64,000 nt of DNA from Carcharhinus longimanus (Eukaryota), in contig JASCQW010000081.1 in NCBI GenBank assembly GCA_030264375.1, forward strand, positions 93,164,923 through 93,228,922, read 5' to 3'. The notes beneath the pieces were generated by a model. That model made no database searches and had not been told where the DNA came from. It saw only the letters and a list, made by a program, of their open reading frames with translations. The translations under genes and the position numbers were made by a program. Of this stretch, positions 1,673-56,035 are shown piece after piece; position 1 is the first letter of the stretch, and each line of letters opens with the position of its first letter.

Positions 1673-1702
1673 CTATGAATTCTTCTTGCTGTGTGCCTGC
1701 GA
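1673..1702 (-). CDS. Candidate 30-nt phase-1 micro-exon, (I)AGTQQEEFI
   Basis: ttttcttacgttccag|tcgcaggcacacagcaagaagaattcatag|gtacgt; open in phase 1. Confidence 0.65.
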   Translation of the reverse strand, partial: SQAHSKKNS

Positions 1703-2005
1703 CTGGAACGTAAGAAAATCATGAGAAAAATAAAAACAGAACATGCAGAACATTTTTCCCCCGATCAATGTAACTATATGAAAAATGTAAGCAAAAAGAT
1801 GTTCCCTATAGCAATTAGTACACACGTCAGTCCAACAATAATGCCTTTAGAATAGTGAATATCACAATGTCAACAACATCTCCTTGGCAACCTGTTTGGT
1901 GCTTTTCCACGCAAGTTAACATTCCCATAATAGTAATTCATACATCGTATTCTTTGAAAATACGTTTCTTAAACCCACAATGAAACTGGAAAACCTGCGA
2001 CTTAC

Positions 2006-2032
2006 TTGTAACCTGTTCTTTGGATAGTTTTT
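2006..2032 (-). CDS. Candidate 27-nt phase-1 micro-exon, (E)KLSKEQVT
   Basis: ctgattttgtcttatatctacag|aaaaactatccaaagaacaggttacaa|gtaagt; consensus splice sites. Confidence 0.75.
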
Positions 2033-2511
2033 CTGTAGATATAAGACAAAATCAGAAGTTTGCCGAGAACAATGTGACAACAGAACATTAATCTGCACTG
2101 ACGAGTTTACCAATTTTTAGTGACACCCTTATTCACGATGTTTTCAGAATGAACATTGTGCATAAGGTTGGTTGCCAAGGAAAACAATACTACTTGGAAA
2201 GATTGCATAAATTGTCTTCATTCAAACTATCAAACACATTTCGTCTTAAAATATTGCCAGTAAGATTAGTGCAGCTCTGCGTATTGATGTTCATTAAAGC
2301 AGCAACATATTTTTTGTTCAGGCAGCAAACACCAAATTGACTGTTCGCGAATGTAATTTGCTAATGCAGATAAGTGAAGGTTTCCTAGGGTTAAGGAGTA
2401 TACTGCAGATAAATGTTAAAGGCGAACTAAGCAAGTTAATGGTGGAAAATCAAAAAATATCAAGATAAATTTCAGAAAAAAAGTATATATTTTTCAGTTA
2501 ACACATCTCAC

Positions 2512-2547
2512 CAGCGTCCGACAATTTTGTTTTCAGGCTCATAATTT
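2512..2547 (-). CDS. Candidate 36-nt phase-1 micro-exon, (E)IMSLKTKLSDA
   Basis: ctgactttgtttttaag|...gacgctg|gtgaga; paralog of 15124-15159 with synonymous codon changes. Confidence 0.8.
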
Positions 2548-2639
2548 CTTAAAAACAAAGTCAGTATGCACATCACATGTTAGAAACTGTGAAGGAGGTT
2601 TGCGTGTTCTGACATGAAAACAACAAAATAAAAGAAAAT

Positions 2640-2787
2640 GTTAGCAGGTCTGACAGCATTTGTGGAGAGTGAGGCTGCGTCAATATTTCATGATTCATAT
2701 TTTATAGGGCGTATCGGAAGTAGTTAAATAAGAACACAAGGTGTTAAATATATTTTTGTCTCAACAGATGCTACCAAACCTGCTAAC
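2640..2787. repeat. Imperfect inverted repeat, probable Penelope-type terminal repeat remnant
   Basis: Arms gttagcaggtctgacagcatttgtggaga (2640-2668) and tctcaacagatgctaccaaacctgctaac (2759-2787); resembles a common chondrichthyan repeat. Confidence 0.5.
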
Positions 2788-3409
2788 GTTTTACAATGCT
2801 TTCTGTTCTAAACAAAGAGAAAAGTTGTGCCACTGTTCAATGATGTTGACATACATTAATCTTGTAGTGGTCGTTATAAAACTTTCATGAAATTTTCATT
2901 CATTTGAAGAGTCCAAACTTCCACTTGGAAATAATAATTTTATTAATTTGTAGAAAAAAAAATCGGAATAAAACGTCACGCTGTTGTTTTTCAACATAAC
3001 ATTATCCTGAACGAAAATAAAATAGAGTTCATCAACTTTGCTGCTTACATTATTGTTCACTTATTCTAGAAAGCAAACATTTAACACCAACAAAATACGC
3101 ATATCATGGCTTGTTGCAAACCGATTTTGAATTTTGTGGCATAATCAATGCAACAGTTCAATTATGAATGCAAAAATTGAAATGTAGCATATACTTCACA
3201 TTTAAAGCAACTTAATAACCGTCCATGTACTAAATTTACTTTTCGATGTTTTGAGCAGGTGTAAAAGAACGTGTTTATGTTCCAGTCTCTGCACATGCAT
3301 AATATTGCACTGCACTATGCTTGCAGCTAAATTTATTTAACCTGAATTCCCGTTTATATTAATTAATTTGAAAAAAAAACTTCTGCACCTTTATTGGACA
3401 AAAATTACA

Positions 3410-4330
3410 CTATTGAACCTCTTAAAATTTATCAGATCATGACCAAAAATGTTGATGGACAACGAGAGAGATAGATAGTGGTAAGTTTGTGTGTTCGAAA
3501 AATAGAGTGATGACAATCTTTCACTGCGAGGGAGTATGTTTGCATGGTAAAAAGTGCATGAAGACTGGACAGAAATAGTTAGGTTAATTGAACGGAAACA
3601 TACCTGTCAAAATATGTTACAAGTCAGAGAATGCGAAATTGCCTATTTTCGGGAAGAATCGGCATACGCACAGCATCAAATAAGTGAGAAATTTCAGATC
3701 TCGAAAGGCAGAGTGACGTGCTTAACCCAATACATTAAATGCAATTACAGTGCCAGTAGAGCACGTATTTAGGAAAGCTTAAGCAATATTATCGGCTTTT
3801 TCTGAGTAGCACTGAAAATAGAAGTAGAGCGAATGAGCTTCAATTGTTCAGGTGGCCAGTGGGAACCATTTTGGATGACAACATATTGTGCATGGACACG
3901 TTATTTAATGAAGGATATAAAAACCGTGGAAGCAATTCACCGATGTCTTATCGTCTTATTAGGAAAGGAGGGACACGCTCGCCTTCAATCTGTCGGTGAC
4001 CATCATAAAATAAGTGAACTGACTGGGTATATAAGTTTCTGAGTCGTCTGGATAAGGTGCAGTTAAAACAGATTTTTCCATTTATGGGGTAATCTAGAAT
4101 TAAGATCCGTAGTTCGTCATTTAAAAAAAAACAGATGAATCGTTCGTTTCTTTCTCGCAAGTTGTCATGAGATTTGATTCAACTGTTCCTGAAAAGATGA
4201 TGCAAATAGACCTTTGAAAAAGATTACTCCTGGTAGAGTGAACAGAGCTGCGGTAAGCAAGGTGTGTTTAGATTATCGTTGTTACCCGATTTGAATACAG
4301 GACCGAATACAAGGCTTGAATACCGACTTC
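3410..4330 (+). mobile_element. Heavily decayed CR1 LINE 3' part
   Basis: Residual 'MLQVRECEIAYFRE' resembling CR1 'M.YNV.KCEV.HFG'; CR1-like downstream sequence. Confidence 0.55.
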
Positions 4331-4464
4331 AGGGTAGGATCAAAACAACTACGCCCGGATCAAACTGGAGGGTTTGCCGATCCTTCTGCTGCCGACCTTC
4401 CCGCTTCTTTATTGCAAGCTGTGAGCTTAGCTGATTGCAATAGACCCATGTGGAGATTACATAC

Positions 4465-4491
4465 CAGAATCTTTTTGCAATAATTGTCTCA
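4465..4491 (-). CDS. Candidate 27-nt phase-1 micro-exon, (V)RQLLQKDS
   Basis: ttttcccctttgattttcag|tgagacaattattgcaaaaagattctg|gtatgt; paralog of 17769-17795 (17/27 nt, Leu codons differ synonymously). Confidence 0.8.
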
Positions 4492-4639
4492 CTGAAAATC
4501 AAAGGGGAAAACAGTTTATTTGTTTCCACACGTTATCATGCATTTTATTTTACAAACTTTAATTGACACTGTAACATCAAACCAAGTAGAATAGATTAGT
4601 TGTACAGAGATGAGCTCACTCATTGCGGTCAAAGGCTGG

Positions 4640-4850
4640 ACGGCGACTCAATGGTTAGCATTGAAGGCTCTTGCGCTAGGGGCTCCAGCTTCAATTCAGG
4701 CCGTATGTGGAAATTATATATGCTGCCCGTGCCTGCCTGGGTTTCCAACGTACATGGATAAGATGTCCTGACAGAGAATCAATGCGAATACGATGGACTG
4801 AAGGGAGTAGTCCTATTCATCTGCAGAAGGTTCCTGCGCCCAGCAATACT
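4640..4850 (+). mobile_element. Decayed tRNA-derived SINE (HE1/V-SINE-like)
   Basis: Degenerate match to the intact SINE at 41651 (tggttagca...gggtttcc). Confidence 0.5.
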
Positions 4851-5383
4851 ACTTTCCTTTGAACTGAGCTGCTTGATGACAATTTCAGAGTTCTTAGTTC
4901 TGTTTGTACTCTTTACAGTGAACATCTCTTTCAGTCAACATGATGTGTGTTTCTTTGAAACAACTCCTGCAAAGAGCAATCACCTTTATGTTTCAATTCC
5001 ACAGCAATTGATATTTTTGAGGCATCATAAAAGAAAAATTGGCAATGAAACAGGATATCGTTTATCTCATTTGAATACCAAGAAAATTTCAAGAACACCA
5101 AGAAATACCAAGAAAAAGCTAGGACAAATCGTTCAGGGCCCTCAAACGTCGAATATTAGAACGCTGGGGAGAAGGGGTAAGTGAGATAAACGTTGAGGTG
5201 CCAGCGAGGGAAGACCACAGAAGAAAACAATTCTTTGTGAGTTTAGAAATAGGGTTCATTTTTATTTAGATAAACGTGAGACTTTAGACATTGATTTGCA
5301 TATATGAAAGGCAGAAATGTTTGATGTACTTCAAGGGTAATTTTAAAAAAAATCATAAATCCAGCCAATGGTCTACAGGTTGA

Positions 5384-5428
5384 CAGATAGGTAGCTAGAT
5401 AGGTAGATAGATAGATAGACAGACAGAT
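5384..5428. repeat. (AGAT/AGAC)n microsatellite
   Basis: Visible tetranucleotide run. Confidence 0.85.
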
Positions 5429-5784
5429 GCGCTGACCTGCTCGTACAGGCAAAAGAGATAGCGTGTAGTTATTGCCGATTTGTGTCTTCAATCAGTAAAG
5501 CAAAAAAAAATGTTCCTCTGCATCGCGTATTCTGCACTTTGGGAAAGAGAGCAACATTACAAATGGGTCGCTCATAACAATATTTATCCCTATAATATGA
5601 TGTAAATCATTTAATTCCTGAACGTTGGTTCATCTGGCAAAACCAGGAAACACAATTAAGATGGCTTGCAAAGATTCTTGATTGAAAAGCATGATGCTTC
5701 ATAACGAATAATCATCGTGGGACTGTTCAGGTTCCATTTAATGATTCATGTGGAAAGCAAACGCATTGCTCAGTCTGCGGCAAC

Positions 5785-5814
5785 CTGCAAAACGTTGATG
5801 CAACACTGCATTTG
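5785..5814 (-). CDS. Candidate 30-nt phase-1 micro-exon, (T)NAVLHQRFA
   Basis: aattgtatctttttcag|caaatgcagtgttgcatcaacgttttgcag|gttgcc; strong acceptor, weak donor. Confidence 0.45.
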
Positions 5815-6641
5815 CTGAAAAAGATACAATTTCATAATGCCTAGTTTGTGTACACAAAAAAGAAGATTGCTTGCTGAACATGCCTTGTCTCGAATGGTGG
5901 CCGTGGGAGCTGCAATATCGATAGAACTGACTGCCAAATTATCATCACAATTTTGTGCAGGAATGAAAATCCACTATTTGGAAATACCCACAAATGTCAA
6001 AACAACAATTCATATCTCAGGAATATGTCAAAATGGCTCATTCAGCGAGTGAATGCTGGGGGAAGGATTGCGGCAAATGGTGTCAGAGTGCAAGTCTTGA
6101 GCGATGACTGTTTCCCTGAGGATAACATTCAAAATAAGCAGATGAAAAAGAAATTGATTGTGATAAATGAAATTTGGATATATATGAAGAAAAGCATTAC
6201 AGATGTATAAAATAGAATGTGGAAAAATACAAGGAACTCCGCCTGAACGCATGGTATTTACAGGATGAATCATACAGATGCTGGGTAATTCCGAAATTAC
6301 AGGGATGACATATTAGGAAGTAAGTTGATACTGGTGTACTTTCTGAGTCTACATACCAAAAAAAAAGACACCGAATGTTTTTTGTTTAAAATGTGGTAAT
6401 AAAATTTTAAGTATATTCACGAGAGCGTTTTTGCGACTTAAATTTTACATCGTCATCAACATGCAGTCGAGGGGGCAAAAATATGAGATAGCCCTTCAGG
6501 TGGTGTGTTGTAATTTTTCTGGTCTTTTTAGGATACAATTGATAGAAAATATAAATATTAACTGGAGTGTTGTCAGCAGATTGTTCGATGTCAAAACTGA
6601 TGGAAAAGCTTTCTGAATAATTAGCATATTGCATTCGAAGA

Positions 6642-7625
6642 GGCTTAGTGAATTAAACGGAAGAGAAAATCAAGAGAAATCCTAATAGTCAAGCAAGATT
6701 TTTTTTAAAATCAAGAGTAGTGTCATATGAATACGGCCTCAAGAATAAACATGACTTGTTAACACTGGAGTGTTAGATCTGTGCACAGTCTGTGACGTGG
6801 CTTCACCCATTTACAAATACAATGAACTAAGATGGTTCAGCTCTGATTTGTGATTATGTTAAAACAACAATAAATACAGAGTTATGCATGCAAGAAATAT
6901 GTACCAAGTGTAATTTGATGAGCTACGGTAGCGTTTCCTGCTCACTCAGAGGTTAGGAAACTTGAAAGATCAACAGGAAATGACGAAAAATGCTATAAAG
7001 GAAAGTATGATAGGTTATGAGAGCAAGTTATTTCAAAATGCAGAAACAGTTAGTGAAAGTTTCTACATATGTAAAAATCGCAGCAGAGTAGCTATGGCAA
7101 ACATTTATCATTTAGGGGGTGATAATGGGTATCAATAACTGAAATTATGAAATGGTCGAGACATTGAACAGGTCGCTATTGTGTCGCTATTGTGACAAAA
7201 TGAATAGTATACTCCTCTCACAGAATTAACACTCAAGGAACGCAAGAAGATGAGCTTCCCTTTCATAATCAATTTTACCTGTGTGCGTACGTGAAATAGT
7301 ACCATCTGCCTATAGTAATTTTATTGCCGAATTTAAAATAGCCACCTGGGACTCTCTCTTTAAAATAACAAGTAACACTTTATTTTATCTAACAAACAGT
7401 GAACAGATTAAGTAAACGGCAAACAAACAGAATAAATCAGCATTTTATATTCGAAGAGATATTCGGCTTAGTGAATGAACTGGAAGAGAAAATCAAGAGA
7501 AAGCCTAATAGTCAAGCAAGATTTTTCTAAAATCAAGAGTAGTGTCATATGAATACGGCCTCAAGAATAAACATGACTTGTTAACACTGGAGTGTAAGAT
7601 CTGCACACAGTCTGTGACATGGCTT
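6642..7625 (+). repeat. About 160-bp direct repeat pair (6642-6803 and 7465-7625)
   Basis: Near-identical copies, both starting and ending in ggctt. Confidence 0.9.
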
Positions 7626-8320
7626 AAATAATAACAATTCTGACTTATTACCAATAATAAAATATAATTTTTAGTCACATTAAAAATGCAGTCAGATGTG
7701 TCGACTTCCTGGAATCGTTTTGCTTCTTTGATTTTGTTCTTGTGTCTTTTGAGAGGAAATAAGGCTTTCTCTTGAAACATGTATTGCGGCTGTCTCACTG
7801 GCAGGAAGTTATCTATTTACATCTCTCTAGCTGTGAGCTATGGCCTTAATTGGTGGAAGATGCAATGGCTGTTTTGTGACAGTTCGGAGCTGTGAGCTGA
7901 AGTGTTTAAACTCGCACTGACATACCAACATTCGTACAATAAGATTGGGTCACAGGTCATCAAAACATCAAAATCCAAATCCGATAGCCTGCTGATTTTC
8001 AAATGCCTATTTCAAATTATTTGGTTAAAATAAAAACATATTCTGGTTCAAATACCTGAAATCTGTTACCAATGTAACCCTAATGTCACCCGATGCCTTG
8101 TTTCAGTCTGAACTGGATTTTAGCACCTTTTTTTTATATATACAAACAAAACTCCTTTTCAGTCATCGCCTTTAAAACAAACAACTGTTTCACTCTTTTA
8201 CAACACTAACTTTGAAACATCTCCCCCTTTCCGTAAAGAAAATGAACCTTCATCATAAAAAAAATGCTTCATGCATTTTCTTCAGTTTAAATCGCGAAAT
8301 TGCATCCAGAATCATATCGA
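7191..8320 (-). mobile_element. 3' LTR (about 7191-8219), PPT and RNase H C-terminus of a Gypsy (Gmr1-like) LTR retrotransposon
   Basis: TG...CA termini; polypurine tract ggaaagggggaga abutting at 8220-8232; minus-strand DMILDAISR (cf. NVIADALSR) about 60-90 bp upstream. Confidence 0.6.
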
Positions 8321-8449
8321 TCCAGTGTCAGCTGTATTGGGAGGTGGAGGGGGATAACTATGTGAGGTTACAGGAGTAAGGCCTGGGGTGGTCAGTGCAG
8401 ACTTGTTGGACTGAATGGCCTCCTTCTACACAGTAGGATTTAATTGATT

Positions 8450-10075
8450 ATTTATATGATTAAAGGCAGACAAGTCCCCTGGCCCTGATGGAATGTATCA
8501 CAGGTTCCAAACAAAATGGTGGGGGAATTGTAAACGCATTTGTTGTAATTTACAAAACGTTGCTGCACTCTGGGCCATTCTTGCAGGTTGGAAAACAGCA
8601 AATGTAACACTATTGTTTACAAAGGGAGGTAGACACAAAACAGGAAAATATTAGTTGGGTAATTTAACATGTGTATTGTGGTAACTGCTTCAGTCTATGA
8701 TCAAGGACAAAATAGTGGGACTTCTGGGTGTGGGTTATCCCATTCGGATGACGCAAAGTGAGTTCATGACAGCCATGCCATTTTAAACTCGTTTACTCCA
8801 ATTATTTCAGGACATTCCCAGCAGAGCTTGATGTGGTATACCTGGATTCCCAGAAGATAGTCAACAAAGTTCTGCACAAAAGGCTGTTGCATATGATAAA
8901 GTTGTATAGCATAATGACTCATGCACTGGCATGGGTAGAGGATTGGTTAACTAATCAAAAAAGCAAAAATAGGGTAAATTGAATTTTTCCTGATTGGCAA
9001 TCAGTGACGAGTGTTGTGCCTCAGTTGTCAACATTGGAGCCGCAATTGCTTGCAATTGACCAAAATGTTTGTTGTTTCGGAGAAAGTGCAAGTGTGTCAA
9101 AGTTTGCAGATGACATTAAGATGAGTTACAAAACTAAATGTGCAGAGAACACTCAACGTCTGCAAACGGATACAGTTATTCGAAGGGAGTGTACGTGGGT
9201 CTGTCAGATTTGGCACACCTTTGGTAAATGTGAGATCATCCATTTTTGTAGGATCAACAGAACAATGACCCATTATTTAAATGCTAAATGTTGCAGCTTG
9301 CTGCTGTGCACAGGGTCCTGGCTATCTGTGTGCATAGGGTTCGCAAAACGTTGGTTTGCAGGTGCAACAGGTAATTTGGAAGGCAAGTGGAATTGTGTCC
9401 TTCATGGCTGGAGGGAAGGACTTTAAAACTGGGATGTCATATTGCAGCTATATAAGGTGCTGGTGAAGCCACACCTGGAGTACTGTGTACGGATTTGGTT
9501 TCCTTACTTAAGACATAGCATACTGGCACTGGATGGGGAGTGGTGGCTGGGGGGCAGGGGTGGGGGGACTTGGTGAAGGGGTGCACATGAGATTCACTAG
9601 GTTGATTCCGGATTTGAGTGGGTTGGCTTAAGAGGAGACATTGTTTCGACTGGGACTGTATTCCGTGGCATTCAGAAAATGAGTGGGGATTCTGTGGACA
9701 CATAATCATGAAGGGTATAGATAGATAGAAACAGGGTGATTATTGTCACTGTCAGTTAAACTGAAATCGAGACATTGCCTCAATATGAGGGGTGCAAAAT
9801 TTGCGACTAATTTGAAGAGGAACTCCTTCAACAAAAATGTTGTGATCTGTAGAATTCCCTGCCCAGTGAAGATGATGCAGCTACCCATTGATTTGTTTTA
9901 CTTTCAGGGAAAGATATATGTTTAAACAATAACGGGATTAAGGGATATGGTGAGTGGGCGGGTAAGAGGAGTTGAGTCCATGGAAATATCAGCCATGATC
10001 TTATTGAATGGCGGGACAGGCTCAAGGTGCCAAATGAAATCCTCTTGCTACTATTTTTATGTTATTATGTTCTGA
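8450..10075 (+). mobile_element. CR1 LINE ORF2 (RT) and 3' UTR, decayed
   Basis: DKSPGPDG, VTSVVPQ, KFADD, KCEIIHF, VKPHLEYCV motifs; CR1-type tail. Confidence 0.9.
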
Positions 10076-10100
10076 ATGAGCATTGCACGTCATTACTTAC

Positions 10101-10127
10101 TGGTCGATTGAAGCAGTTTTCTGCATT
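10101..10127 (-). CDS. Candidate 27-nt phase-1 micro-exon, (E)CRKLLQST
   Basis: tttcttattattttccattag|aatgcagaaaactgcttcaatcgacca|gtaagt; paralog of 19451-19480 (20/27 nt). Confidence 0.8.
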
Positions 10128-11499
10128 CTAATGGAAAATAATAAGAAACATTGCAGTAAATAACTAAAACCTCATAACGGATCAAACAATGAAATTACAA
10201 TGCACGAAAATCATTAAATGAAACATGACATGGGAGGGAAATGTTTAATGCATTGCAATACATTGCTATTTTTTGACAGTTACATATTTCAATATTTGCC
10301 TAATTTGTAAATTGATTTTTTTTTGGCGGGGGGGGGGGGGTGGGGGGCGTGCGTTGCAAGATGCCGATGTGTCTTTCGTATGGAAGCACATTATACCACG
10401 TAACCAACAGATAGTCTCCTGAGATCGGAAGATCCTCGACGTGCAACTTGTGTCAAATTGCGGAAACAGAATTGCCTGATTCTGTCCACGTATATTAGAA
10501 ATTTGAGGGTGTTGAAAAATGTGTGGAAGAGGGAGCAATTGACAATTGCCCGAATGCACACACAACAGTTCTACCGGCGAGGAAAAACGCGATGCTCATG
10601 ACAGTCCGATAAATGTTTTCCGCCAGGCTAAATAATTCAAATATCTCTCCCTCACCTGAGGAGGATCTGTAATGTTGTGGAAGGATCGAAGTTTAAGTAC
10701 ATGTTGTAGGCTGGAGGTACAGACCTGATGGTAGTGATATCAATTTATTTCCATCATTTGGCTCACTAGGAACTTCTTCCGTGATAAATGTTTGCAATTG
10801 GAGTAAAATGCTCTACACGTTGATGCATGGATGCTAAATTGTTGCCATCAAATCCACAGGAATACAAAACTTGAACTCGAGGCTTAGAGGCAATTCTGGC
10901 GCATGCGTGGTGCATTTTCAGAGAGGATTGATAATTTAACTTTGTTGAAACGAAATTATGTCTTTCAAGGTTATAATCAGACACTGTTTTCCATGTCAAT
11001 AATTGAATGATTAGTGGTTTGGCAAGAGGACATCATTTGGATAGAGAGTACACACATTACTATAATGAGAAAACAAGCAACAACAATCTCCTAAATTAAA
11101 GATGAAGACACACACGCACAAAATTAAAATATATCACATGGCAACATTTCGCATTTTCAACTCTTGGCAGGCAATCGACAACGAATCGTACAAAGACATG
11201 ACAATCTCTGGTGGTCAACGCTGTGGGTAACGCAGCCCTGTATAATTTTGAATCAATTCAACTGCTAATGAGCACTACGTTAAAGTGAGTTGAAATTTGG
11301 TGAAGAGACATCATAAGCGAATAACTTCCTTGAAATGTTCTTATTTTCAGAGCAGAAGCACGGTTCATCATTATATAGAAAGATAGAGCATATAAAATAG
11401 CAGCAAGAAAAGTAGCGTTCCCCGGCCAATTGCAGACAACCCATGGGAGGCTGCACCAAAAACCATTATGACACTGGCTAATTATGGAACTCTGCAACT

Positions 11500-13830: not shown

Positions 13831-13899
13831 TTCCTGTTTTTTTTTGTTACTTTTGAATCTAGTTAGCTCCTGGATCTTCATACGTCTGCCTATCATTTT

Positions 13900-14110
13900 T
13901 CTTACTCTTGTTTCTCGATTTGGCTCTCATCATTGCTGCCCCCATCCTTGCAGAGTTTGCCTTCCCACTGCCTGTAATTTTGAAGCCTCCACAACCATTC
14001 TCTACCTGAATCCCCTGAGCACATCCGTCCTTGCCCTTCAGTGGTGCAAGGCAAACTCTATGCAGACGTCCTACCTCTTCATATCCGCCCCAATCATCCA
14101 CAAATCTGAG
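13900..14110 (+). mobile_element. Penelope-like GIY-YIG endonuclease C-terminal remnant
   Basis: 'LPTACNF...TSVLAL' resembles Penelope 'LPVACHF...LSVLGL'. Confidence 0.45.
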
Positions 14111-42515: not shown

Positions 42516-42519
42516 TGTT

Positions 42520-45500: not shown

Positions 45501-47190
45501 AGTGCTATATGAATGTTAAATATCTGTCTTCACCGATGAAAATGAGGAGATACTCGGCGAGAGAGACTGTGGGGCTGTCGAAAATATATGTCATATGAAA
45601 TGACAAGGTGCCGGAGGTGTCTACAGATTTAAAAGTGGACACATTTGGAGTTTTAGATGAATTATGGCGCAGGTTGTTGTGGGATGCAAGGGAGGAAATT
45701 GCAAGAGTGTTAGTGCAATTTTATAATTCCTCTTTGGTCATTGGGGAGGCACCAGAGTATTGGAAAACAACTAACATGTTCCCTCTATTTGATAAAGCTT
45801 GTAGAGGCAAGTCGGGGAACGACAGACCAGTGAATCTCACATCTATGGTGGGGAAACTACTGGAAACGCTTCTGAAGAAGAAAAACTCTCTCCATTTCGA
45901 GAGGCAATATTTGACCAGGGATAGTCATCATGATTTTGTCAGAGGAAGGTCATGCCGAACAAATTTGTTTTTTTTAACGCGCAACTAAATGTGTGGATGA
46001 GGTTACTGCGGTTCATGTAGTTTACATGGATTTCAGCGAAGCCTTTGACAAAGTCCCACATGGCAGACTTATAAAGAAGGCTAATGCACATGGGATACAG
46101 GGTGATATGACAAGGTGGATACATAATTGGCTTAGTGGTTGGTGTCAGAGTGTCGTGACAGACGGCTTCTTTAGTGCCTGTATGCCAGTGACCAGTGATG
46201 TACCAGACGACTGTGCTCTGTCATCTATTTCTTGTCATTTTTTTATAAACGACACAGATGAGTATGCGGAGGGGGATCAGAAATGACACAATGTTGAGCC
46301 GGATGGTTAACGGTGAGGTTGAGTGTCTTGGGCGAAAGAAAGATAGAGACGAGCTGTTCAGATGGATGGACAAGTGGCGGATGCTCACCCTGAAAAGTGT
46401 GCGGTGAGGCTATTTGGAAGGAGTAATTCAATAAGATAGTATTATATGAAAGGTCTGACACTGGGATGTTCTGAAGAAGAAACGGACCGTGACATATTTG
46501 TCCCTAGATCTCTGAAGAGGGAAAAATAGTTAAAGAGTGTGGTGAAAAAGACACACTTTCCTTCATCAACTGGGGGATAGATTACAAAAACAGATAGGTA
46601 ATGTTGGAGTTGTATGCAACTTTTCCGAAGCCACAACTGGAGTACTGTGTGCAGTTCTGGTCGCCATATTATAGGAACGACGTGAACACACTTGGAGAGA
46701 AGGAGAGAAGATTGATCAGGATTCTATCTGCGGTGGGACATTTAAGTTTTGAAGAGAGGTTAATTCGGCTTGGGTTGTTCTCGTTGGAGCAAAAAATATG
46801 GTGAGACGAATTGATTAAGGTCTTCAAGGTTATGAGGGGCATGGACAGGGTGGCTAGGGAACAACTGATCCCCTTCGTTTAAGGGTGAGTTAAGATGGGG
46901 CACAAGTTAAAAGTGAGGGACGGGAGGTTCCGGGGGGATATGAGGAAAGACCTTTTACTCAGTGGACGATGAAGGTCTAGAAAACATTGCCTGGGAGGGA
47001 GGTGGAAGCGGGATTCCTCAGATCCTATAATAAAAAGACCTGGATGAGTCCTTGTCACGCCATAACATTCAACGCTACCGGCCAAATGGTGATGAGTGGG
47101 ATTATGTGTGTCGGTCAGCGGATTTCACGTATCGGCGTGGGGCCAAAAAGCCTCTTCTGTACTGTAGTAATCTGCGATTCTGTGATTAGT
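42520..47190 (+). mobile_element. Near-full-length decayed CR1 LINE (ORF1 SGNH esterase plus ORF2), interrupted by a nested CR1
   Basis: ORF1 RDS..KG, HVVTNDIG, DGLHLN; ORF2 RPVNLTSMVGKLLE, VVYMDFSEAFDKVPH, LEYCVQFWSP. Confidence 0.95.
44222..45235 (+). mobile_element. Younger 5'-truncated CR1 nested in the older CR1
   Basis: SGVTQGSVVGP, KFADDTK, own 3' tail; flanked by caatgag at 44215-44221 and 45236-45242. Confidence 0.9.
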
Positions 47191-47881
47191 TTCCATCATG
47201 CGGTGCAGACAACGGGAAGTGGTGCGTTGTGAGTTAAGGGCATTGATTGTTGCAGAAATGAAGTCCTGTGCTCCAAATCCAGACAAGCCCACTGCCAAAG
47301 TGCAGGTTAACTCCCCTGGTGCTTTTTTTTTCAAAACTACTCAGATTGTATTTTTCGACCGTCCTTTGATTGTCGGATCAGTATATATTACTCAATAGCC
47401 ACGCTATCGAAACTGAACACGTACAAGGATGGTTTAATGATCTGTTGCTGGGCAAACTAGGTTATAATATTTCCTCTGCCCAACATGTAAAGTTAAGCAA
47501 ATCACGTGATCTGATGGACAACGGTCAACTGATCTAATAATGTCCACTTAATTGACCACTAAAAGATAAATTGGACCACCAGTGTAAATTTGTGTGAAGG
47601 TTAATGAACGCTGAACACTCCATGTTGCTATTCTGGGGAATGGCTCCACTCAGCTATACTGAGTTTTATTTTCCATGAAAGAAGGGTTCCTTTGAAAATA
47701 AAGGAAGCATTTCTGAAAACTTCCACCTCTTCCCTTCTTGAGTTATCTTATCTTCAGCGTGTTATATATTGACATAGAGGCATGCTGTTCTGCTTTCAAG
47801 ATAAATCGCTGCCATTAAAAGGTCGATAAAACAGACCGCAAAACGTTCCTTCTTGTACAGGGAGAAATAAAATATTCTTAC

Positions 47882-47908
47882 CCGAAGTAGCTGCAAGTCT
47901 CTTCGCAT
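47882..47908 (-). CDS. Candidate 27-nt phase-1 micro-exon, (D)AKRLAATS
   Basis: ttattgtgtttactttcag|atgcgaagagacttgcagctacttcgg|gtaaga. Confidence 0.7.
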
Positions 47909-50204
47909 CTGAAAGTAAACACAATAATCCGAATTTAACTTCAGTGGAGGTGGTGCATATTTGAAATATTACAAAACGCACTATCGGAAGTTTACCGTAA
48001 ATTCTTATGGAACTCATCGAATAAATAACGTGGAAACTAAACGAGTCACTGTTTTTTTTAGGGAATGTAACAGAACTGAAATACCCAGCTGTGGAGGCAC
48101 ACGGCTAGTTAATGAGCAGGTGCGTTACTTGCCCAGACTTGATCGGCTTGATGAGGTGGAATGTCAATGTTTCGGGCTCCCAGAATGAGGAGCCAAAATG
48201 GGGATCAACAATACAAGGTTCCCTGTTGAAGCTTCTGGTGCCTGAACAGCTACGAGGGTTTTTATCCTGATTGAATCAAGGAGCAGTGATTGCTTCAGCA
48301 TTATTAGAATTTGATCCAGAAATATAACCTTGTTCTGTCTTTTGTTTTTGGAGATGATGTGTTCAAGATAATAGTAAAATTTGTTACTTCTGCTGGGTGT
48401 TTCAAGCAATGGGCAGATTACATTTGAAATGATAAATTATTCAATTATTTATTTTGTCCCATTCGAAGAACTTTCACATCTCCGTAAAAAGTTGCAAAAC
48501 ATTATTAATCTCTTGTTCGAATCCCCCAAAGCACCAAAGAATATCTTTGTGGTTGTTGGATGTGAATTATATCAAACTGAGACATGCAAGTTGGGTTTCT
48601 TCAGTTTCTGGAATGGATAAACACATTTTTAGGTGCTTCATTAATTACTTCTATTTTCCATGGTTATGTCAAACGGATCATTTGAATTTGCTGAAAACCG
48701 ATGCTAATACTTAGGGAGCGAGGTTATTTGCGTCCTTTTGCAGCCGTCTCTGAAGAATATTTAGGGTTGAAAACTGAAGAACACATGAGGTGCAAGCAAT
48801 GACCATCCAAAACATTCAGGAATATAACCGTCTCCATTGGATACCTCAATATATCCCCAACGACAAATCATCTACTATCACTATTGTGTGAGTTCTAATT
48901 ACTAAAATGTTAACACGAATGAAAATCTGAAACTATGTATTCCGCGAAGAGACACCGACCTTCTGACCCAGCAACGCCTACCATCTACCTACTTTGTCCA
49001 TCTCAAGAGTATGCGTGAGGGACACTGTTAATCTTCCCTGCATGGGCTCTGCTCCAGAAGCATTCAAGACATTGAAGATCATCCCCAAAAGGAAAGAAAA
49101 CAACTTCTGTCACATACGCAGCCGCCTTTACCATTCTCTCCTTCCACCAGCAGTTTCAAGACGTTGTACAATGTTGACCCCAGCACCTTAGCAAGGCTCA
49201 GTTGATAGCGCCTTCAAAACACGTGACCAGTAACATAAAGATGGACAAAGACAGCAGATGCTGGTTTAAGCCTTTGCCACAATTTACCCTTTGAAATTAA
49301 TATTTTAACACACGAACTTTAAGGATAATCAAAAATAAATAGAGGTTGTGTGAGAGAGAGAGAGATGGAGAGAGCAAGCGATCAAGAGATAGATGGGCAT
49401 GACATGGGTTGAACAGATCCCACGTCACGTCAGAACCCCCCCCCCACCTCCTCAAGTACCCCCCCCCAAAAAAAATGCACACGCAGAACACAAACAACCC
49501 CACTATACATCTCACCAAACTCAGTCGTTGTTTTCACAGCCTCCATCGAGAAAATAAAAATAACGATTCTGAGAAACAGCCACGAAAATTACACCGGTAA
49601 AGCCTTTTCAACAATAATATCTGAGGTGTATTTATTAACGCGAACATCAGAAAAGTAAACATTACTGCAGCATGCACATCGCACAACTGCCGACCTCCGC
49701 AGATTGTGCACAGATTTCTGCTGACTACAAGAGAGAAGGAGAGGTGGGGGAGTGTTTTGAGGACAGGGAGAGGTATGGAATTCATGGTTTGAAAAGGTCC
49801 CTCTGTACACCGAATAATCGAAAAGCCAGCAGATTGCTGCTTTCGTGCTATATTGTTGCATTGAATAACAGGAACTTAAGACCTTACCGCGAAGCCAACC
49901 TAAACAGTCTTAACGGATGAATACGTTTTTTTTTAAATGCTGAAAATAAACTGCTCAGGTTGAAAAGATAAAATACTAGGTTTCATTTTTAAACCGTAAG
50001 CAGTCTTATAAATTACTTTCCGCGTTTGCTGCGGACTGGGATACAGTTTCTGAGTTTCCTATAAATCTTTTCACTTTAGCTAGTCTTGCGTTTTTTTTCA
50101 TGTTTGGCTCTGCATTTGTAACATTTGAAAAAAACAACAAACGGTGGCATTTGGAAAGTGACGATCGGAGCGCATGCCACCATAAGCCCCTTGCAGAATC
50201 ATAC

Positions 50205-50222
50205 CTTCAGTATCAAATAATG
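50205..50222 (-). CDS. Candidate 18-nt phase-1 micro-exon, xLFDTE
   Basis: ttctaacttcttgtcag|cattatttgatactgaag|gtatga; ctaac branch-point motif. Confidence 0.6.
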
Positions 50223-53200
50223 CTGACAAGAAGTTAGAACTGTCTACCTGCTCCACATGACTAACTATCGATCCCGAGTTAGCAGTAACAATTCAAACAA
50301 AGTAACACTTGTGTCTCAAATTTCAAAATCAAATTGAGGGCAGCAAACTTCTGCAGATGACCACGTTTTTTTGAAAAAAATGTTTCATTGATATTATCTA
50401 CGGGGTATTAATCCTTCAGGATATCAGGTAAATAAACTTTATTGCAGTATTAATATCTCAAAGCAAATAACCCTCACAAACTCGCTGCCAACAACATGCC
50501 CCTGAAAAGGCCAATGGCCTTGGCAGCTTCACAATAATGTGCATAAACGTATAACGAGACGTAGCTAGAGGGAGGTACTGTCAGATTCGTCGCCCATCTA
50601 CGACCAGCTGAATTGACAACGTATGTGCTTACTACTAATCATCTTTTAAATAAAACCTTGAAATACAGCAACATATATGAAATTCATGGAAGCCAGAGAG
50701 GGACAGAACGATAAAGAGAGAAATAATAGAAGACAGAAACAAGAGATGAATAACAGAAGCAAGGGACCCTGTGGTTCGTCTTTTGGTCAATATCAAATCA
50801 CAATACTTAGCCCAAGAAACACTTGCAGGCTAATAGAAAAATTTGGTAATTGCCTCCCTTTGATGGAGGCAAGGCAAACATGATTATGCCGAATGACCTT
50901 CGGTGTTGTAAGACACAACATATACTAACGTTATGGTTTAATTGTAAGGTTATAGGCCAATGGAACAATAAGTCGTGAAATCTGGTGTATATTCATAATA
51001 ATCATTATGAATTGCCATTTTAGAGAGTCATTATCAGTTTACATCTACTTTGTATTCCAAAATATAGGCCAACAGTCCACTTGCAAAGCAAAGATTTGAA
51101 AACAAATGTTTTGTTTTAATTGGAAATTTCAAATGCAGTTATAATAATAGTGTTGTCCAGTATTTTGATCAGCAAAAAAAAGTACACTGAAGGGGCCAGA
51201 TTTCCATGCAATTATATGACCTCTAACGTGCTAAACATATACCGTCCTCTGCACAATTTCATTGGAATACACTGCACTAATCTATTGCTGAGGGCAAGAA
51301 CGTTCAGCGCTAACGAAACTGCCATCGGTCCTGTATCATGTTTACTCCCAGGTCATGCCGGCCGCCAGGTAACTCACAGTAGAGGAAATCAAATATGCAT
51401 TTAGTGGCGTCACAAGCAGCATACTCCGGTGTACCTACCAGTGTCAGTTGATTGTTAAAAATGAACACAGAAGATTTCATCTGGAAGCTATAACTTTAAT
51501 TTTAGAGTCCTCTTGGGTGTTTCAAAATAATTTCAATGGTGTGTGCAATGCGGTGTTTCATACTGTCAGCGCAATTTTCCAAAAGAATCTTAGCCAAAAT
51601 AATCATCAGGGTGGCTCGAGCATTCCTGCCGCACCCCACCCCAACAGCCAACACACATAAACACCATTGCATGTTCACGACTCTTACACGTATCTGCACA
51701 CCCAACATGTGTTTCCCTTCTTATCGCTGTGGAAATCAGCACCAACTAGTTCGGGACGTGATGAAAACACGCGTCCTCTCCTGCTGGGTGTCGGGAAATA
51801 TTTTCCAATGCTCCTACAGAAATTAATTCGGAGGACGTGTTTAGCTCCGACAAGACTGATATCAATATGAAACATTAAAGACTGAACGAACTTGGTGTGC
51901 CTGAATTGCCTGCAGAAATCTAATTTTTAAAATGCTTTAAAAAGCTATGCAATCAAACAGTGTTGAATTCTGCTTAAATTTGTTTTATCATTATGCTGGG
52001 ATTTCTTGTAGCCAAGTGAGCCTGTAAGTTGTGAAAGTATACGATTTGTCAGATGTAATGGCTTGTCCTGGGAAAGGAGAAGTCCTTTACAGCCGGGTGA
52101 ATCCGCTTTTCTTTATCTGGGAATTGAATTAAAACAATAACCTCAGGAGCCTCGATGTGGAGTGTTCTGGAAAGAGTAATATCACTACTCTGGATATGTT
52201 TGATCGGAATAATCGAACGATGCAATTGGAGTTTCTCATAAGTTAAGTAGCTGGTCGCCAAATAACTTTTGCTGTTTAACTCTGCTGACACAAGAACCTT
52301 GTAGAGAAATGCAGTGTGAAGAACCTGGGGCCCGAGCTCACACAGAGAAATTTGAAAGAAAGAAAAGACAAAGGACTGATTTCATGCGTCAGGTAAACCC
52401 AATGTCCGGTTCTAATTGCAAGCACAAAACGACCTTATGTCATTTTAAGTAGGTGTAATTGTTATTCTCGATTGGACTCTTAAAACGTGCTGTTGAACAA
52501 AACCTGGTGTTTACTCTGAGCGAATAAAAGCAGTGTAGCGGGTTCTCGCTTAAACAGGAGCTCTGACAACCATACAGTTGAGTGTAAAGGGGGATTATAT
52601 AAATATTCTTAGGTTGTATTGGTGGATTTTTTCACGTTCTTGGTACATCGGGCGGAGGAGGAGTAGGAACCAAATTTCACCATGAAACGAGTTCCTGGGC
52701 TAAGTTGCCTGTCCTCCAACCGCACCCCCCCCCCACCCCCACCCCCTTAATGTAACCTAGGAGTAATGGGGAAAAAAGCAAAGTGTTCGAAATGTGAAGA
52801 AATATTTAGACATTGTCTCCTTAAAGATAATGGTGACTTTGGTGGAATGTTGTATCATTTGTAGAGATGAGAATTGTGGCTAATTCCAAATGCACAACAT
52901 GCAAATAATTAACAGTTAATATTTTAAATGTGGCTTGAGAATAAAACAAGTATTTCAATGCATATTAATTATGTATCTAAGAAATGAATTTCTAACTTGA
53001 GAGTAAAATGATGGATGTATTCATGAATGATATCAGCACAAAACAGGCGAAAATCCTGCAACAATGAAAATAGCCCATTTATATCCAGTCTGGGGAAAAA
53101 TGCCAAAAGGTAAAGACACCTTCATTTGATATAAGAGCCGTTTTAGAAGTGTTAGATAAATGCTGAAACATTAAAAAGCCATTTTTGGAAGCCAACTCCC

Positions 53201-53559
53201 ACAAAACTGACAGGCAAATAAAAAAAAAACAAAATTTGAAGCTGTCAAACTATAATTGATTAAAGGACATGTCATTGTTAGATTTACAGATCAATGCATT
53301 AATGACGTTGCTTTTAAATACGTGCAGGTCTGTATAATCTGATAACAGAAGTTACAATAATACTGCTTTTTGGTATGAAACCTGAGATCTTTTGAGAATG
53401 CCACATAGCTGATTTGCAATGTCGGTGAAATCAGAGACCATGTTTTTGTCCAACATAAATTGATTTTGCATTATGTGTTTGTTTGTCTGAGTATTTTTAA
53501 TTTGTAGTGATTTTGATTCTAACATTTCAATGGTTTAATAAAAAAAGGTTTAACTGAAG

Positions 53560-54960
53560 AATTTTATTGAACCAAATTAGTTGTCATTTGCCTTTATGAA
53601 ATGAAGAACAAAGTAAAAGTCAATCAGATGGCCTAGTAGAATTTCCCACAACAATTAGAGAAAGGTAGGTCAAAAATGTTGGCACGAAAGATGTCATTCC
53701 TAAGGAAAGTGAGCAGAAAACTTGAATTACATCGATTGCGAATTGTTTGTGGCCCTTACAGGGAAAATAAAGGGAAATTACTTTTTTAAATCATGAAATA
53801 GAGACTGTTACTTAAAAAATAGAGCTGCTACAAGTATCAATGAAGATGATAGAGAATGAGCTACAGTATGTTTTAGATTTGGAAGTGAAACAAGGGCGGG
53901 AGGATGTAAAAATTGAAAAAGATAGGATGGAGAAAAAGATGGAGGGGCTTATGTTAAATTGGCTGTTCAGGAATAAGGAAATCAAGTTATATGCTATGCG
54001 TTTCCAATTCAGTAAGAAGACGTTTATCATGAAAAAAAAACTGCGAGCTTTTAATGAAAAGGATAAGGCAGAAAAAGTTAAGCATTAACAGAAGATTGTA
54101 CAAATCAGCAGGGAGCATTTAAGTTTTTAGACAAAAGTCAGTGATAAAAAACAAGCTTCCACAGCTGGCCATTGTATGTCCCAGCGGGAAATTGAAAAGC
54201 TGAATCCGGGGACCAATCTCATAAAGAGAAACAAAATCTGGAAGAACAAAGGACTATGACAGCAATACAGTGGGCAATGTTTAATTGCAAGTGGGATTCA
54301 ACTTTTAGTTTAGTGAAGGATCAGCGAGCTATGATTTGGTTTAAGCACTGCATAGATTGCCGGACGCGGCATAGAAAAATCAAGTTTCCATGACATAAAA
54401 TATTCACTTGGCCTCATTAGAAATAGTACGTACACAAACGATTGCCATACTACCCAGAAGGCTGTGGAGGAATGTGGAGGGTACAAAAACGGTGTACCAG
54501 GACATTGCCTTTATTGGATGATTTTTGCTGTGAAGATAGATTTGTCAAACTTCGTTTGTTTTCATTTTAACTTCGGAGGCTCAAGGTTGACCTTATTGAA
54601 GTTAACACAAATCACCAGAGGCATGGTTCAAATCGAAAGTGAGAGTATGTTTCCATTTCAAAAATGTCCATTACTGGGGAGCATATGTTTAATGTAAAAT
54701 AGTGGGTGGGGTTTTAACGGAGATGTGAGGGGCATTGTGTTATACAGAGAGTGTCAAACGCCTGGACAGTGCAGTCAGAGGAGGTAGAAAAAATCCAATG
54801 CAACAGCAACCTTTAAGACGCACCTTGGCTGGTGTAGGATTAGACAGGGTGCTGGTCGTAGTGAGTTGAAAATGTGTTTCGCTTAGAAATGTATGGTGCG
54901 TCGGCGCAGGCTGTGTGGATCGAAGGGCCGTTTCTTGTGCTGTAATGTTCCTTGTAAACA
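53560..54960 (+). mobile_element. Decayed CR1 ORF2 fragments and 3' tail
   Basis: CR1-like motifs (ESMFP, TESVKRLDS, gaagggcc tail). Confidence 0.65.
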
Positions 54961-55329
54961 AATTGACGGACTGAAATCGCGGTTGCGTGATGATTACATT
55001 GGATAATGAAAAAAAAACGGGAAACATAATAAAAGACGGAGGGTGGAGGGTGCGAGAGTTGGGGCGGCAATTTGAAACGGAGATCAGGAAATTGTCACAG
55101 AAAGAGGGAGCGTGAGACAGGTATTTCGATTAAATGCAATTTTGAACTTCATAATGTTGAACAGACTGATGTGTATGCCTCATTAAACTAAACTTGCATC
55201 ACTCTGCCCAGGAATACTTTTAATTCTGTGTATTTTTGTTTACAAAATCTTTCATTGCTGTATTTTAAATAGTGCAAGCAGTTTAGGCAATACGCTCCCA
55301 AAGCGGCCCAGAATTCCAATTTTAAATTT

Positions 55330-55810
55330 ATTCAATCATTGGTTCTGAAGAATAATCCAGGATCATAAGATCGGATTCTAAGAAGGTGATGCCAGTCAGG
55401 ATGTATACAAGAAGACGCTAACAGGGCAAGACCCAAATCAAACACGAGAGCGCATAGTTTCTATCCTGAATGAGACCACTAAGTAACTTCGATTCATTCG
55501 CCGCAGACTCCGGCAAACACATGAAACCTCCCTCGATTCTTATTGTAATTTCGGTTCTTGGAATATAAGTATCTGTAAATCCACGACAAGTCATGCAACT
55601 TCGTGCCGTGGATCGCTATTGCAATATTTTCACAGTTACTTGTTTGAAATTATGGACCAGCAAGATCAACAGTTCCGTGGGGAAAAAAAATCACACAAGT
55701 GTACGAATAAAGGGTTGCAACACTTGAAGTAACTCGCTCTCACCTTCTGAAGGGCAATTGGAAATAGGAACTGAAGGTTGGCCAACAGAACAACATCATG
55801 TATGTTGAAA
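55330..55810 (+). mobile_element. Decayed LINE 3' remnant (family of 33240-34150)
   Basis: Similarity to 33560-34150 (agtcagga..., gctctcaccttctgaagggcaatt). Confidence 0.5.
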
Positions 55811-55857
55811 TAAAGTAAAAACAAAATCTTCATTTCTCGAAGTGATCGGTGTCTTAC

Positions 55858-55884
55858 TTATTCTGTCTTGTTGCAGAAACGTTT
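55858..55884 (-). CDS. Candidate 27-nt phase-1 micro-exon, (E)TFLQQDRI
   Basis: gtgttgcag|aaacgtttctgcaacaagacagaataa|gtaaga. Confidence 0.6.
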   Translation of the reverse strand, partial: KRFCNKTE

Positions 55885-56011
55885 CTGCAACACCCTTGCG
55901 AGGTGTAGAATATCAGTCAGCTTAAAAGGCACAAAAACGAATGCTTTGAATAGAGGAGAAAACGCCTCTGCATCGGCTGCAATGTTATACGTTCATTTTT
56001 TTCCATGTTAC

Positions 56012-56035
56012 CTGCTAATTCCTTTATCAACTTTG
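56012..56035 (-). CDS. Candidate 24-nt phase-1 micro-exon, xKLIKELA
   Basis: ttttctttctgttgctcgtttctaacag|caaagttgataaaggaattagcag|gtaaca. Confidence 0.75.

What the first reader, a model, noticed from the sequence alone, without database searches (positions are those of the whole stretch)
1673..56035. Hidden minus-strand gene built from a long array of symmetric phase-1 micro-exons
Seen: about 20 segments of 18, 21, 24, 27, 30 or 36 nt, each bounded by a pyrimidine tract+AG and a GT donor, all on the minus strand, all in non-TE gaps between retroelements, all open in phase 1. Joining 21690 to 1673 gives EQKKHMELLE-VTESVATL-NECRTLLQRT-MRHLLLRDA-GTPKVFHSL-NIVTLQAKLKEA-AGQLNHLI-ECRKLLQST-TNAVLHQRFA-VRQLLQKDS-EIMSLKTKLSDA-EKLSKEQVT-IAGTQQEEFI, which looks amphipathic and coiled-coil-like. 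Known: runs of tiny symmetric exons encode the tails of chicken BG and butyrophilin proteins and occur in TSBP1, triadin and schistosome micro-exon genes. Inference: an unannotated shark gene or cluster whose exons can be skipped in any combination without frameshift, giving length-variable coiled coils. I do not recognise the protein and saw no Ig or B30.2 exon here. Unpaired exons could be chance AG..GT hits.
Basis: partly seen in the sequence, partly recalled or inferred. Interest (0 to 1): 0.88.

Follow-up and report, generated by a model that had tools for sequence, protein, structure and literature searches.

The report
Megabase shark micro-exon coiled-coil–B30.2 array
The window is a small slice of a 2.2-million-base stretch beside the immune MHC genes in which hundreds of tiny 27- and 36-base exons spell out coiled-coil segments and the array ends in a B30.2 domain exon, likely making length-variable rod proteins of a shark and ray gene family that automated annotation has captured only in fragments.

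Summary
Largely confirmed, and much larger than the window. Seven window segments tile a catshark RefSeq model (XP_038671246.1) in order. With eight more just downstream, 12 of 14 junctions are flush and 84 of 132 residues identical.

The same minus-strand, phase-1, mostly 27/36-nt exons run about 2.2 Mb (contig 94.21–91.99 Mb; roughly 350–470 exons extrapolated). They end flush on an intact B30.2 exon, with a broken B30.2 copy inside. The array lies between MHC class I/II exons and a NOTCH gene. A second cluster of six related B30.2 exons has arrays pointing at them.

No Ig, RING or B-box exon was found, and the B30.2 forms its own clade. So this is not a butyrophilin, BG or TRIM, though its rod resembles their heptad-exon tails. 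Skipping keeps the frame but usually shifts the heptad register.

Expression in this species is untested, as is whether the window block reaches a B30.2 in one transcript. The scan noted this family before in two other genomes; my paper searches found no description of it.

The parts
17769..17795 (-). 27-nt phase-1 micro-exon
   Evidence: tiles P0039 residues 1-9; paralogue of 4465-4491
15124..15159 (-). 36-nt micro-exon
   Evidence: P0039 residues 10-21, 8 of 11 identical, flush; paralogue of 2512-2547
14381..14404 (-). 24-nt micro-exon
   Evidence: P0039 residues 22-29, flush on both sides but only 2 of 7 identical
10101..10127 (-). 27-nt micro-exon
   Evidence: P0039 residues 30-38, 6 of 8; paralogue 437 bases before the window start
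4465..4491 (-). 27-nt micro-exon
   Evidence: P0039 residues 39-47, 7 of 8
2512..2547 (-). 36-nt micro-exon
   Evidence: P0039 residues 48-59
1673..1702 (-). 30-nt micro-exon with an alternative acceptor 6 nt inside
   Evidence: P0039 residues 67-76, flush with the next exon just outside the window
19451..19480 (-). 30-nt micro-exon
   Evidence: chains to P0001, flush with 17769; similar to 10101 (D19)
2006..2032 (-). probable 27-nt micro-exon
   Evidence: splice scores 12.9/7.2; lies where P0039 has 7 unaligned residues
21661..21690 (-). probable 30-nt micro-exon
   Evidence: scores 3.0/11.1, coding score 7.5; no orthologue match
47882..47908 (-). probable 27-nt micro-exon
   Evidence: scores 11.2/7.0; no orthologue match
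56012..56035 (-). probable 24-nt micro-exon
   Evidence: scores 9.8/10.5; best P0001 match at residue 133, like the exon at 89028
20543..20566 (-). uncertain 24-nt candidate
   Evidence: good acceptor, weak donor
30653..30670 (-). uncertain 18-nt candidate
   Evidence: scores 5.3/7.2; no orthologue match
33613..33639 (-). uncertain 27-nt candidate
   Evidence: scores 4.6/11.1; 4 of 8 identical to a P0001 linker but not flush
50205..50222 (-). uncertain 18-nt candidate
   Evidence: scores 3.5/9.0
22937..22963 (-). 27-nt AG..GT piece whose copy at 24102-24129 is 28 nt long; one may be a decayed exon copy
   Evidence: donor score -3.8; catshark model flush across it
   Evidence: donor score 1.1; catshark model flush across it
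1..64000 (-). The whole window lies inside the array, which continues beyond both ends. Outside parts on G000:C81, minus strand: eight further exons of the P0039 chain within 50 kb before the window start; a tandem 27-nt exon run 66-173 kb before it; a broken B30.2 copy at 92,429,728-92,430,223; the intact terminal B30.2 exon at 91,991,293-91,991,804; the array's far end near 94.21 Mb; an upstream paralogue's B30.2 exon at 94,266,543-94,267,063.

Best explanation
The window segments are conserved, in-frame micro-exons from the middle of a 2.2-Mb tandemly duplicated array that ends on a B30.2 exon, and they are likely spliced into long cytoplasmic coiled-coil rods predicted to dimerise and hold a B30.2 binding head at an adjustable distance.

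Shown: exon boundaries tile catshark models; one phase and one strand over the array; heptad periodicity, with a 36-nt plus a 27-nt exon making three heptads; the last micro-exon is flush with an intact B30.2 exon; block-scale duplications, one carrying a now broken B30.2; location on the MHC contig; a separate B30.2 clade with a second cluster built the same way.

Inferred: expression in this species; that transcripts holding the window block reach a B30.2; dimer formation; that skipping sets rod length and, when single exons are skipped, inserts register breaks that would act as hinges; and a scaffold role in innate sensing or in cytoskeleton and membrane traffic, by analogy with butyrophilin and BG tails.
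For:: 15 exons, 12 of 14 junctions flush, score 380.7 vs shuffled 56±9 (max 72.7 of 20) and plus strand 21. P0001 maps on 59 exons, 47 of 58 flush, score 1202 vs 272±8 (3 shuffles), ending flush at the B30.2 exon; 123 minus vs 11 plus calls in 610 kb not used for training; 0 vs 5 outside the array; hydrophobic residues at positions 2, 5, 9 of 36-nt exons (0.83, 0.88, 0.78); period 3.5 in P0001 (4690 vs shuffled 1754±190); paralogous exons differ least at codon position 2 (0.30/0.20/0.36); long helices plus a C-terminal beta sandwich (mean pLDDT 64.6); 22 of 44 genome-wide hits of a 36-nt exon pattern fall in two clusters (control 13); all 14 on C119 lie upstream of a family B30.2 exon on its strand; in-frame isoform differences; family clade, SH-aLRT 100.
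Against: No RNA evidence was obtained for this species. The catshark model for the window block (P0039, 213 aa) has no B30.2, and neither do P0002 or the ray models P0003/P0004/P0159. The nearest downstream B30.2 is broken and 735 kb away; the intact one is 1.17 Mb away. Decayed exon copies exist in the tandem array. RNA support of the RefSeq models could not be seen. No ligand, partner or tissue is known, so the function is analogy only.
Confidence: 0.55

Rival explanations
1. The window block belongs to a separate rod-only gene in a BG-like tandem cluster. It makes a coiled-coil protein without B30.2, which would work like the chicken zipper protein or pair with B30.2-bearing paralogues.
For: Catshark annotation has the window block and the terminal block as separate models. 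Three species have models ending without B30.2. The broken B30.2 at 92.43 Mb shows that whole gene ends were duplicated. No B30.2 in the contiguous 1.064 Mb.
Against: No start or terminal exon was identified. Exon density and phase are continuous. On C119, pattern hits lie up to 750 kb upstream of family B30.2 exons. Automated models often break at micro-exons (own knowledge). 10% of the 1.064 Mb is N and about a quarter of the array was not fetched.
Confidence: 0.27
2. The array is the cytoplasmic tail of a membrane butyrophilin or BG-type receptor whose Ig and transmembrane exons were missed.
For: Butyrophilin IgC exons exist elsewhere on the same contig. Best solved-structure hit of the B30.2 is BTN3A1, E 2e-14. 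BG tails are built from small symmetric exons (PMC4046983).
Against: No V-set hit in the stretches scanned (best E 0.011, a 32-residue partial match), while the same HMM finds Ig in control proteins. 0 of 24 IgC matches lie in 91.99-94.43 Mb. Orthologous models have no Ig by Pfam. TRIM21 scores nearly as well as BTN3A1. The B30.2 is its own clade.
Confidence: 0.08
3. The window block is a decaying duplicate (pseudogene) of the terminal gene.
For: A broken B30.2 copy; decayed copies in the tandem array (10 of 37); a 27/28-nt pair in the window; an LTR element at 57-65 kb.
Against: One-to-one order and frame are kept with a catshark model at 64% identity. 61 of 62 strong 27/36-nt exons are open. 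Second codon positions change least.
Confidence: 0.08
4. The segments are chance AG..GT hits.
For: The generic splice score alone does not separate the strands within the window. Two of the 13 joined pieces look like chance.
Confidence: 0.02

Closest known systems
Chicken BG genes and the zipper protein (PMC4046983, passages read; PMC8813856, passages read)
   Same: MHC-linked, tandem, same-orientation cluster; long coiled coil written in many small exons; copy-number and length variation.
   Different: BG has IgV plus a transmembrane segment and 13-36 exons of 21 (sometimes 24) nt. Here the exons are mostly 27 and 36 nt, number in the hundreds over 2.2 Mb, no Ig exon was found, and the array ends in B30.2.
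Butyrophilins (BTN/BTNL; PMC12841164, passages read)
   Same: Heptad region followed by a terminal B30.2 exon; on the MHC chromosome in sharks.
   Different: No IgV or IgC found. The rod is 770 aa in P0001 rather than a few heptads. The B30.2 has no Pfam PRY match and forms a separate long-branch clade.
Enterophilin-1 (architecture recalled: soluble long leucine zipper plus B30.2; only its SNX1 interaction was seen in print, PMC13749957)
   Same: Predicted protein layout: cytoplasmic rod plus B30.2, without Ig or RING.
   Different: Mammalian; no sequence was available to compare, so common descent is untested.
TRIM-B30.2 proteins (RefSeq names 'zinc-binding protein A33-like' and 'TRIM39-like' are given to the orthologues)
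   Same: Coiled coil plus B30.2; many SPRY exons surround the array on C81.
   Different: No RING, B-box or TRIM_CC match in the models and no RING/B-box hit in the DNA searched. The names reflect the B30.2 only.
Human TSBP1/C6orf10 (micro-exon structure and position between NOTCH4 and class II are recalled; one search gave only listings)
   Same: Micro-exon gene at a similar place: here the array lies between class I/II exons (84.5-88.9 Mb) and a NOTCH exon (95.9 Mb).
   Different: No sequence similarity was tested, and the NOTCH paralogue was not identified. A lead only.
Teleost long coiled-coil PRY/SPRY proteins (e.g. Lates 'interaptin')
   Same: Very long coiled coil plus B30.2.
   Different: Their B30.2 forms a different clade; P0007 begins with a hydrophobic, signal-like stretch; exon structure not examined.

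Membership tests
Butyrophilin (BTN/BTNL) | Extracellular IgV exon | tested here: not met
   Own V-set HMM: no significant hit in the 1.064 Mb, the sampled loci and the 235-kb and 265-kb stretches; control positive. 100 kb fetched last (L212-L223), unfetched gaps and N runs were not scanned.
Butyrophilin (BTN/BTNL) | IgC (C2-set_3) exon | tested here: not met
   0 of 24 genome matches lie in 91.99-94.43 Mb; 8 lie elsewhere on C81; all 57 candidates scored.
Butyrophilin (BTN/BTNL) | Transmembrane segment | tested here: inconclusive
   None seen by eye in the orthologous models; the hydrophobic-stretch scan of 264 kb gave only unspecific hits; the models may be 5'-incomplete.
Butyrophilin (BTN/BTNL) | Heptad exons followed by a terminal B30.2 exon | tested here: met
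   Met for the array's terminal block; not shown for transcripts of the window block.
Butyrophilin (BTN/BTNL) | B30.2 groups with butyrophilin B30.2 | tested here: inconclusive
   Own clade with support 100; BTN and TRIM rows are intermixed and the sister group is unresolved; quick trees only.
Chicken BG | Tail exons of 21 (or 24) nt, one heptad each | tested here: not met
   82 of 179 calls are 27 nt, 41 are 36 nt, 8 are 21 nt; 2 of 48 mapped exons are a multiple of 7 aa.
Chicken BG | Single IgV plus transmembrane, no B30.2 | tested here: not met
   No IgV found; B30.2 present.
Chicken BG | Tandem same-strand cluster linked to the MHC | tested here: met
   12 of 22 class I matches and the one class II alpha match are on C81 at 84.5-88.9 Mb.
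TRIM | RING and B-box | tested here: not met
   tblastn with a RING-B-box protein hit only the B30.2 exon in 1.56 Mb; Pfam finds none in the orthologous models.
Enterophilin | Soluble long heptad rod plus B30.2, homologous to mammalian enterophilin | not testable with these tools
   The layout matches what I recall; no enterophilin sequence was returned and the original paper was not found in the library.
TSBP1/C6orf10 | Sequence or exon-level homology | not tested
   Only a positional resemblance against a recalled human gene order.

The most novel reading that the evidence does not exclude
The 1.8-2.2 Mb from 94.21 Mb to the B30.2 exon is one transcription unit with roughly 350-470 micro-exons. 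It would rival or exceed titin's 363 exons (PMC3575840) and encode a rod of about 4,000 residues whose length and hinge pattern are set by combinatorial exon skipping: an MHC-encoded, splice-diversified B30.2 sensor family of sharks and rays, possibly an old sister of butyrophilin, BG and TSBP1 tails.
Probability: 0.22. Interest if true: 0.9.

Novelty: new variant of a known kind. Interest (0 to 1): 0.7.

Why it matters
Shark MHC reconstructions are used to infer the ancestral vertebrate MHC, yet 2 Mb between the class I/II block and NOTCH holds a gene array that automated annotation breaks into misnamed pieces. The main text of a 2023 reconstruction does not mention TRIM, BTN, B30.2 or coiled-coil genes (supplements not read).

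The array shows heptad-exon tails reaching an extreme by a different arithmetic (9+12 residues instead of 7). It gives a direct test of how symmetric micro-exons expand and how skipping tunes a rod, and it may bear on where BG, butyrophilin and TSBP1 tails came from. If it is a single unit, it would be among the most exon-rich vertebrate genes.

Tried and rejected
Generic splice-site scoring within the window alone did not separate the strands.

The look-up of sequencing runs: no RNA holder listed. The one holder, X1, covers introns evenly and shows no joint at exon ends, so it says nothing about expression.

Rfam on 100 kb downstream, to explain the tandem repeats as RNA genes: 0 matches; they proved to be exon duplications.

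The repeats at -59k, -49k and -28k, and at 57-65 kb, were considered as Ig or B30.2 exons and rejected as dispersed or LTR repeats. The strong candidate 16085-16111 lies beside a dispersed repeat and is not counted. The 35-nt pair 31016/38259 has a stop in phase 1 and sits in an old local duplication.

Per-exon matching to P0001 against shuffles timed out before the plus-strand control finished (20 of 179 minus peptides beat all 40 shuffles); it was replaced by chained alignment.

A search for longer proteins containing the window block found only P0001 and P0002 (weak evidence, limit 2000 aa). A class II beta search rang nowhere (uninformative). The NOTCH search gave no hit on C119, so no paralogon claim is made. 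The dimer prediction gave no verdict. The careful tree did not finish; quick trees were used. The Atlas search gave only generic SPRY clusters.

Paper searches with no description of this family in their listings.
Full report
Observation. The window is G000:C81:93,164,923-93,228,922 in a 2.68-Gb genome. Internal paralogy was the first real signal: 4465/17769, 2512/15124 and 10101/19451 are similar across the exon and its splice sites.

On 1.064 Mb of contiguous neighbours (10% N) the generic scan gives 151 minus vs 81 plus candidates, 99 vs 23 of 3n length, 42 vs 2 of 27 nt and 20 vs 0 of 36 nt. 61 of 62 strong 27/36-nt minus candidates are open in phase 1, against 24 and 37 in the other phases. 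A model trained on 69 exons outside the window gives 14 vs 6 calls in the held-out window.

Cross-species proof. The B30.2 exon at the end of the array retrieved catshark XP_038671249.1 (P0001, 945 aa, 63% identical). A library-wide search with it found catshark XP_038671246.1 (P0039, 213 aa). Chaining AG..GT candidates onto P0039 places 15 exons from 17769 to -49911 in order, 12 of 14 junctions flush, 84 of 132 residues identical, score 380.7 against 56±9 for 20 shuffles and 21 for the plus strand. Seven of these lie in the window, and 19451-19480 chains to P0001.

I count 8 supported, 4 probable and about 5 uncertain exons in the window. Related models exist in a second catshark and a ray, and the B30.2 exon in basking, epaulette and whale sharks. 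I could not see the RNA support behind these RefSeq models. That such models rarely contain micro-exons without RNA evidence is my own knowledge.

Extent. Sampled and contiguous stretches show the array from about 94.21 Mb to 91.997 Mb. P0001 maps on 59 exons, 47 of 58 flush, score 1202 vs 272±8 (3 shuffles), and the last micro-exon is flush with the intact B30.2 exon at 91,991,293-91,991,804. In 1.57 Mb of non-N array sequence there are 285 minus vs 35 plus calls. This includes the training region; in the 610 kb held out it is 123 vs 11, and outside the array 0 vs 5. Sensitivity on mapped exons is 37 of 49, giving about 350 net and about 470 corrected exons over 2.2 Mb (an extrapolation).

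The array is made of repeated blocks that each resemble parts of P0001, plus a 110-kb tandem run of one 27-nt exon with some decayed copies (37 listed: 28 with AG..GT, 1 of them with a stop, 9 without). A frameshifted B30.2 copy lies at 92.43 Mb; the genome-wide protein search had missed it, so other broken copies could hide in unfetched parts. No further family copy was found in the 1.84 Mb searched locally. A shorter paralogous gene, about 15 exons plus B30.2, sits upstream at 94.34-94.27 Mb and matches catshark and ray models.

Context and family. C81 carries 12 of 22 MHC class I matches (84.5-88.9 Mb), the one class II alpha match (85.06 Mb), a NOTCH exon at 95.9 Mb, many SPRY exons and butyrophilin IgC exons, none of them within 91.99-94.43 Mb. 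No V-set exon (control) and no RING or B-box was found.

The B30.2 matches Pfam SPRY but not PRY. It forms one clade (SH-aLRT 100) apart from the BTN, TRIM and teleost long-rod rows; its sister is unresolved. Unlabelled rows and near-duplicate isoforms were left out, and only quick trees were obtained. Six more members lie on C119 at 6.3-11.3 Mb. A genome-wide pattern for the 36-nt exon gave 44 hits (reversed control 13): 8 in the C81 array, all minus, and 14 on C119, all 14 upstream of a family B30.2 exon on its own strand, up to 750 kb away; the other 22 are mostly scattered background. The pattern was drawn from the C81 exons, so only the C119 hits are independent.

How it likely works. 36-nt exons carry hydrophobic residues at positions 2, 5 and 9, and 27-nt exons at position 4. 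P0001 peaks at period 3.5, and 8 of 10 flush neighbours after a 12-aa exon are 9 aa, so 36+27 makes three heptads. AlphaFold models P0001 as long helices broken by short linkers plus a beta sandwich (pLDDT 64.6, pTM 0.28).

All exons are phase 1, and no skip among nine window exons creates a stop (0 of 36). RefSeq isoforms differ by in-frame blocks of 6, 8, 8, 9, 9, 11, 12 and 23 residues. Only 2 of 48 exons are a multiple of seven residues, so single skips would shift the register and make hinges, while paired skips shorten the rod cleanly (inference). I commit, at 0.55, to a cytoplasmic dimeric rod that positions a B30.2 ligand-binding head. This rests on analogy with butyrophilin tails and the BG-derived zipper protein that regulates actin-myosin (PMC4046983 and PMC8813856, passages read). 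Dimerisation, tissue and ligand are untested.

The main open point is the transcription unit. The catshark model of the window block, a second catshark model and the ray models end without B30.2, which supports a rod-only gene in a cluster (0.27). Continuous density and the C119 layout keep a single giant unit possible (0.22 as the novel case).

Comparison and novelty. It works like a BG, butyrophilin or enterophilin tail but fails the defining tests for BTN, BG and TRIM. The enterophilin layout and the TSBP1 exon structure and position are recalled, not tested. Papers seen: passages of PMC4046983, PMC8813856, PMC12841164, PMC13749957 and PMC3575840; term searches and passages of PMC10751288, with 0 occurrences of TRIM, BTN, butyrophilin, B30.2 or coiled in the main text. 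Nine searches (listings only) showed no description of this family. Supplements were not read and might list these loci; most subscription papers are not held.

Two earlier scan reports on other genomes describe the same kind of gene. I saw them after my own analysis; they are unchecked notes and not counted as evidence. Not in the few lines of them that I saw: the 2.2-Mb extent, the MHC position, the broken internal B30.2, the second cluster and the register argument. Verdict: real, a new variant of a known kind, interest 0.7.

Noticed in passing
window 57259-64000 (runs past the window end to about 64893): LTR-type element on the minus strand: two similar terminal repeats about 6.5 kb apart, with a gag-like zinc-knuckle frame at 61063-61854. 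Observed only.
   Followed up: no
G000:C119:6.33-11.29 Mb (L224-L229): Second cluster of six family-type B30.2 exons on both strands, with 36-nt exon hits pointing at them. V-set and IgC hits lie at 1.2-3.6 Mb of the same contig.
   Followed up: partly
66-173 kb before the window start (G000:C81 about 92.99-93.10 Mb): Tandem array of one 27-nt exon with 1-2 kb introns, about 65-70% alike; many copies have two AG acceptors 3 nt apart, allowing 27 or 30 nt; Met-rich; some copies decayed.
   Followed up: partly
G000:C81:92,429,728-92,430,223 (L146): Broken B30.2 exon copy inside the array, missed by the genome-wide searches but found locally.
   Followed up: yes
window 22937-22963 and 24102-24129: Paralogous AG..GT pieces of 27 and 28 nt on the minus strand; possibly an exon and a decayed copy.
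   Followed up: partly
window about 30900-31250 and 38100-38500: Old local duplication, about 74% alike, holding a 35-nt AG..GT pair that is not open in phase 1; unexplained.
   Followed up: partly
window 6615-6803 and 7430-7625; 57459-57544 and 57645-57730; 15857-15904 and 16005-16052: Young local duplicates; the last two flank 100-N gaps and may be assembly overlaps.
   Followed up: no
G000:C81:95,907,039-95,907,200: Divergent NOTCH exon 1.6 Mb beyond the array; with class I/II on the other side, this recalls the human position of TSBP1 and BTNL2 (recalled; paralogue not identified).
   Followed up: no
G000:C1235:2885-2930: A coding-looking 36-nt exon hit on an unplaced contig, perhaps a missing piece of one of the arrays.
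   Followed up: no
P0006, P0007, P0037, P0042, P0047 and others: Proteins of 1000-2600 aa with long coiled coil plus PRY/SPRY form their own clade (12 rows); the two named ones are from a teleost; a possible parallel invention.
   Followed up: partly
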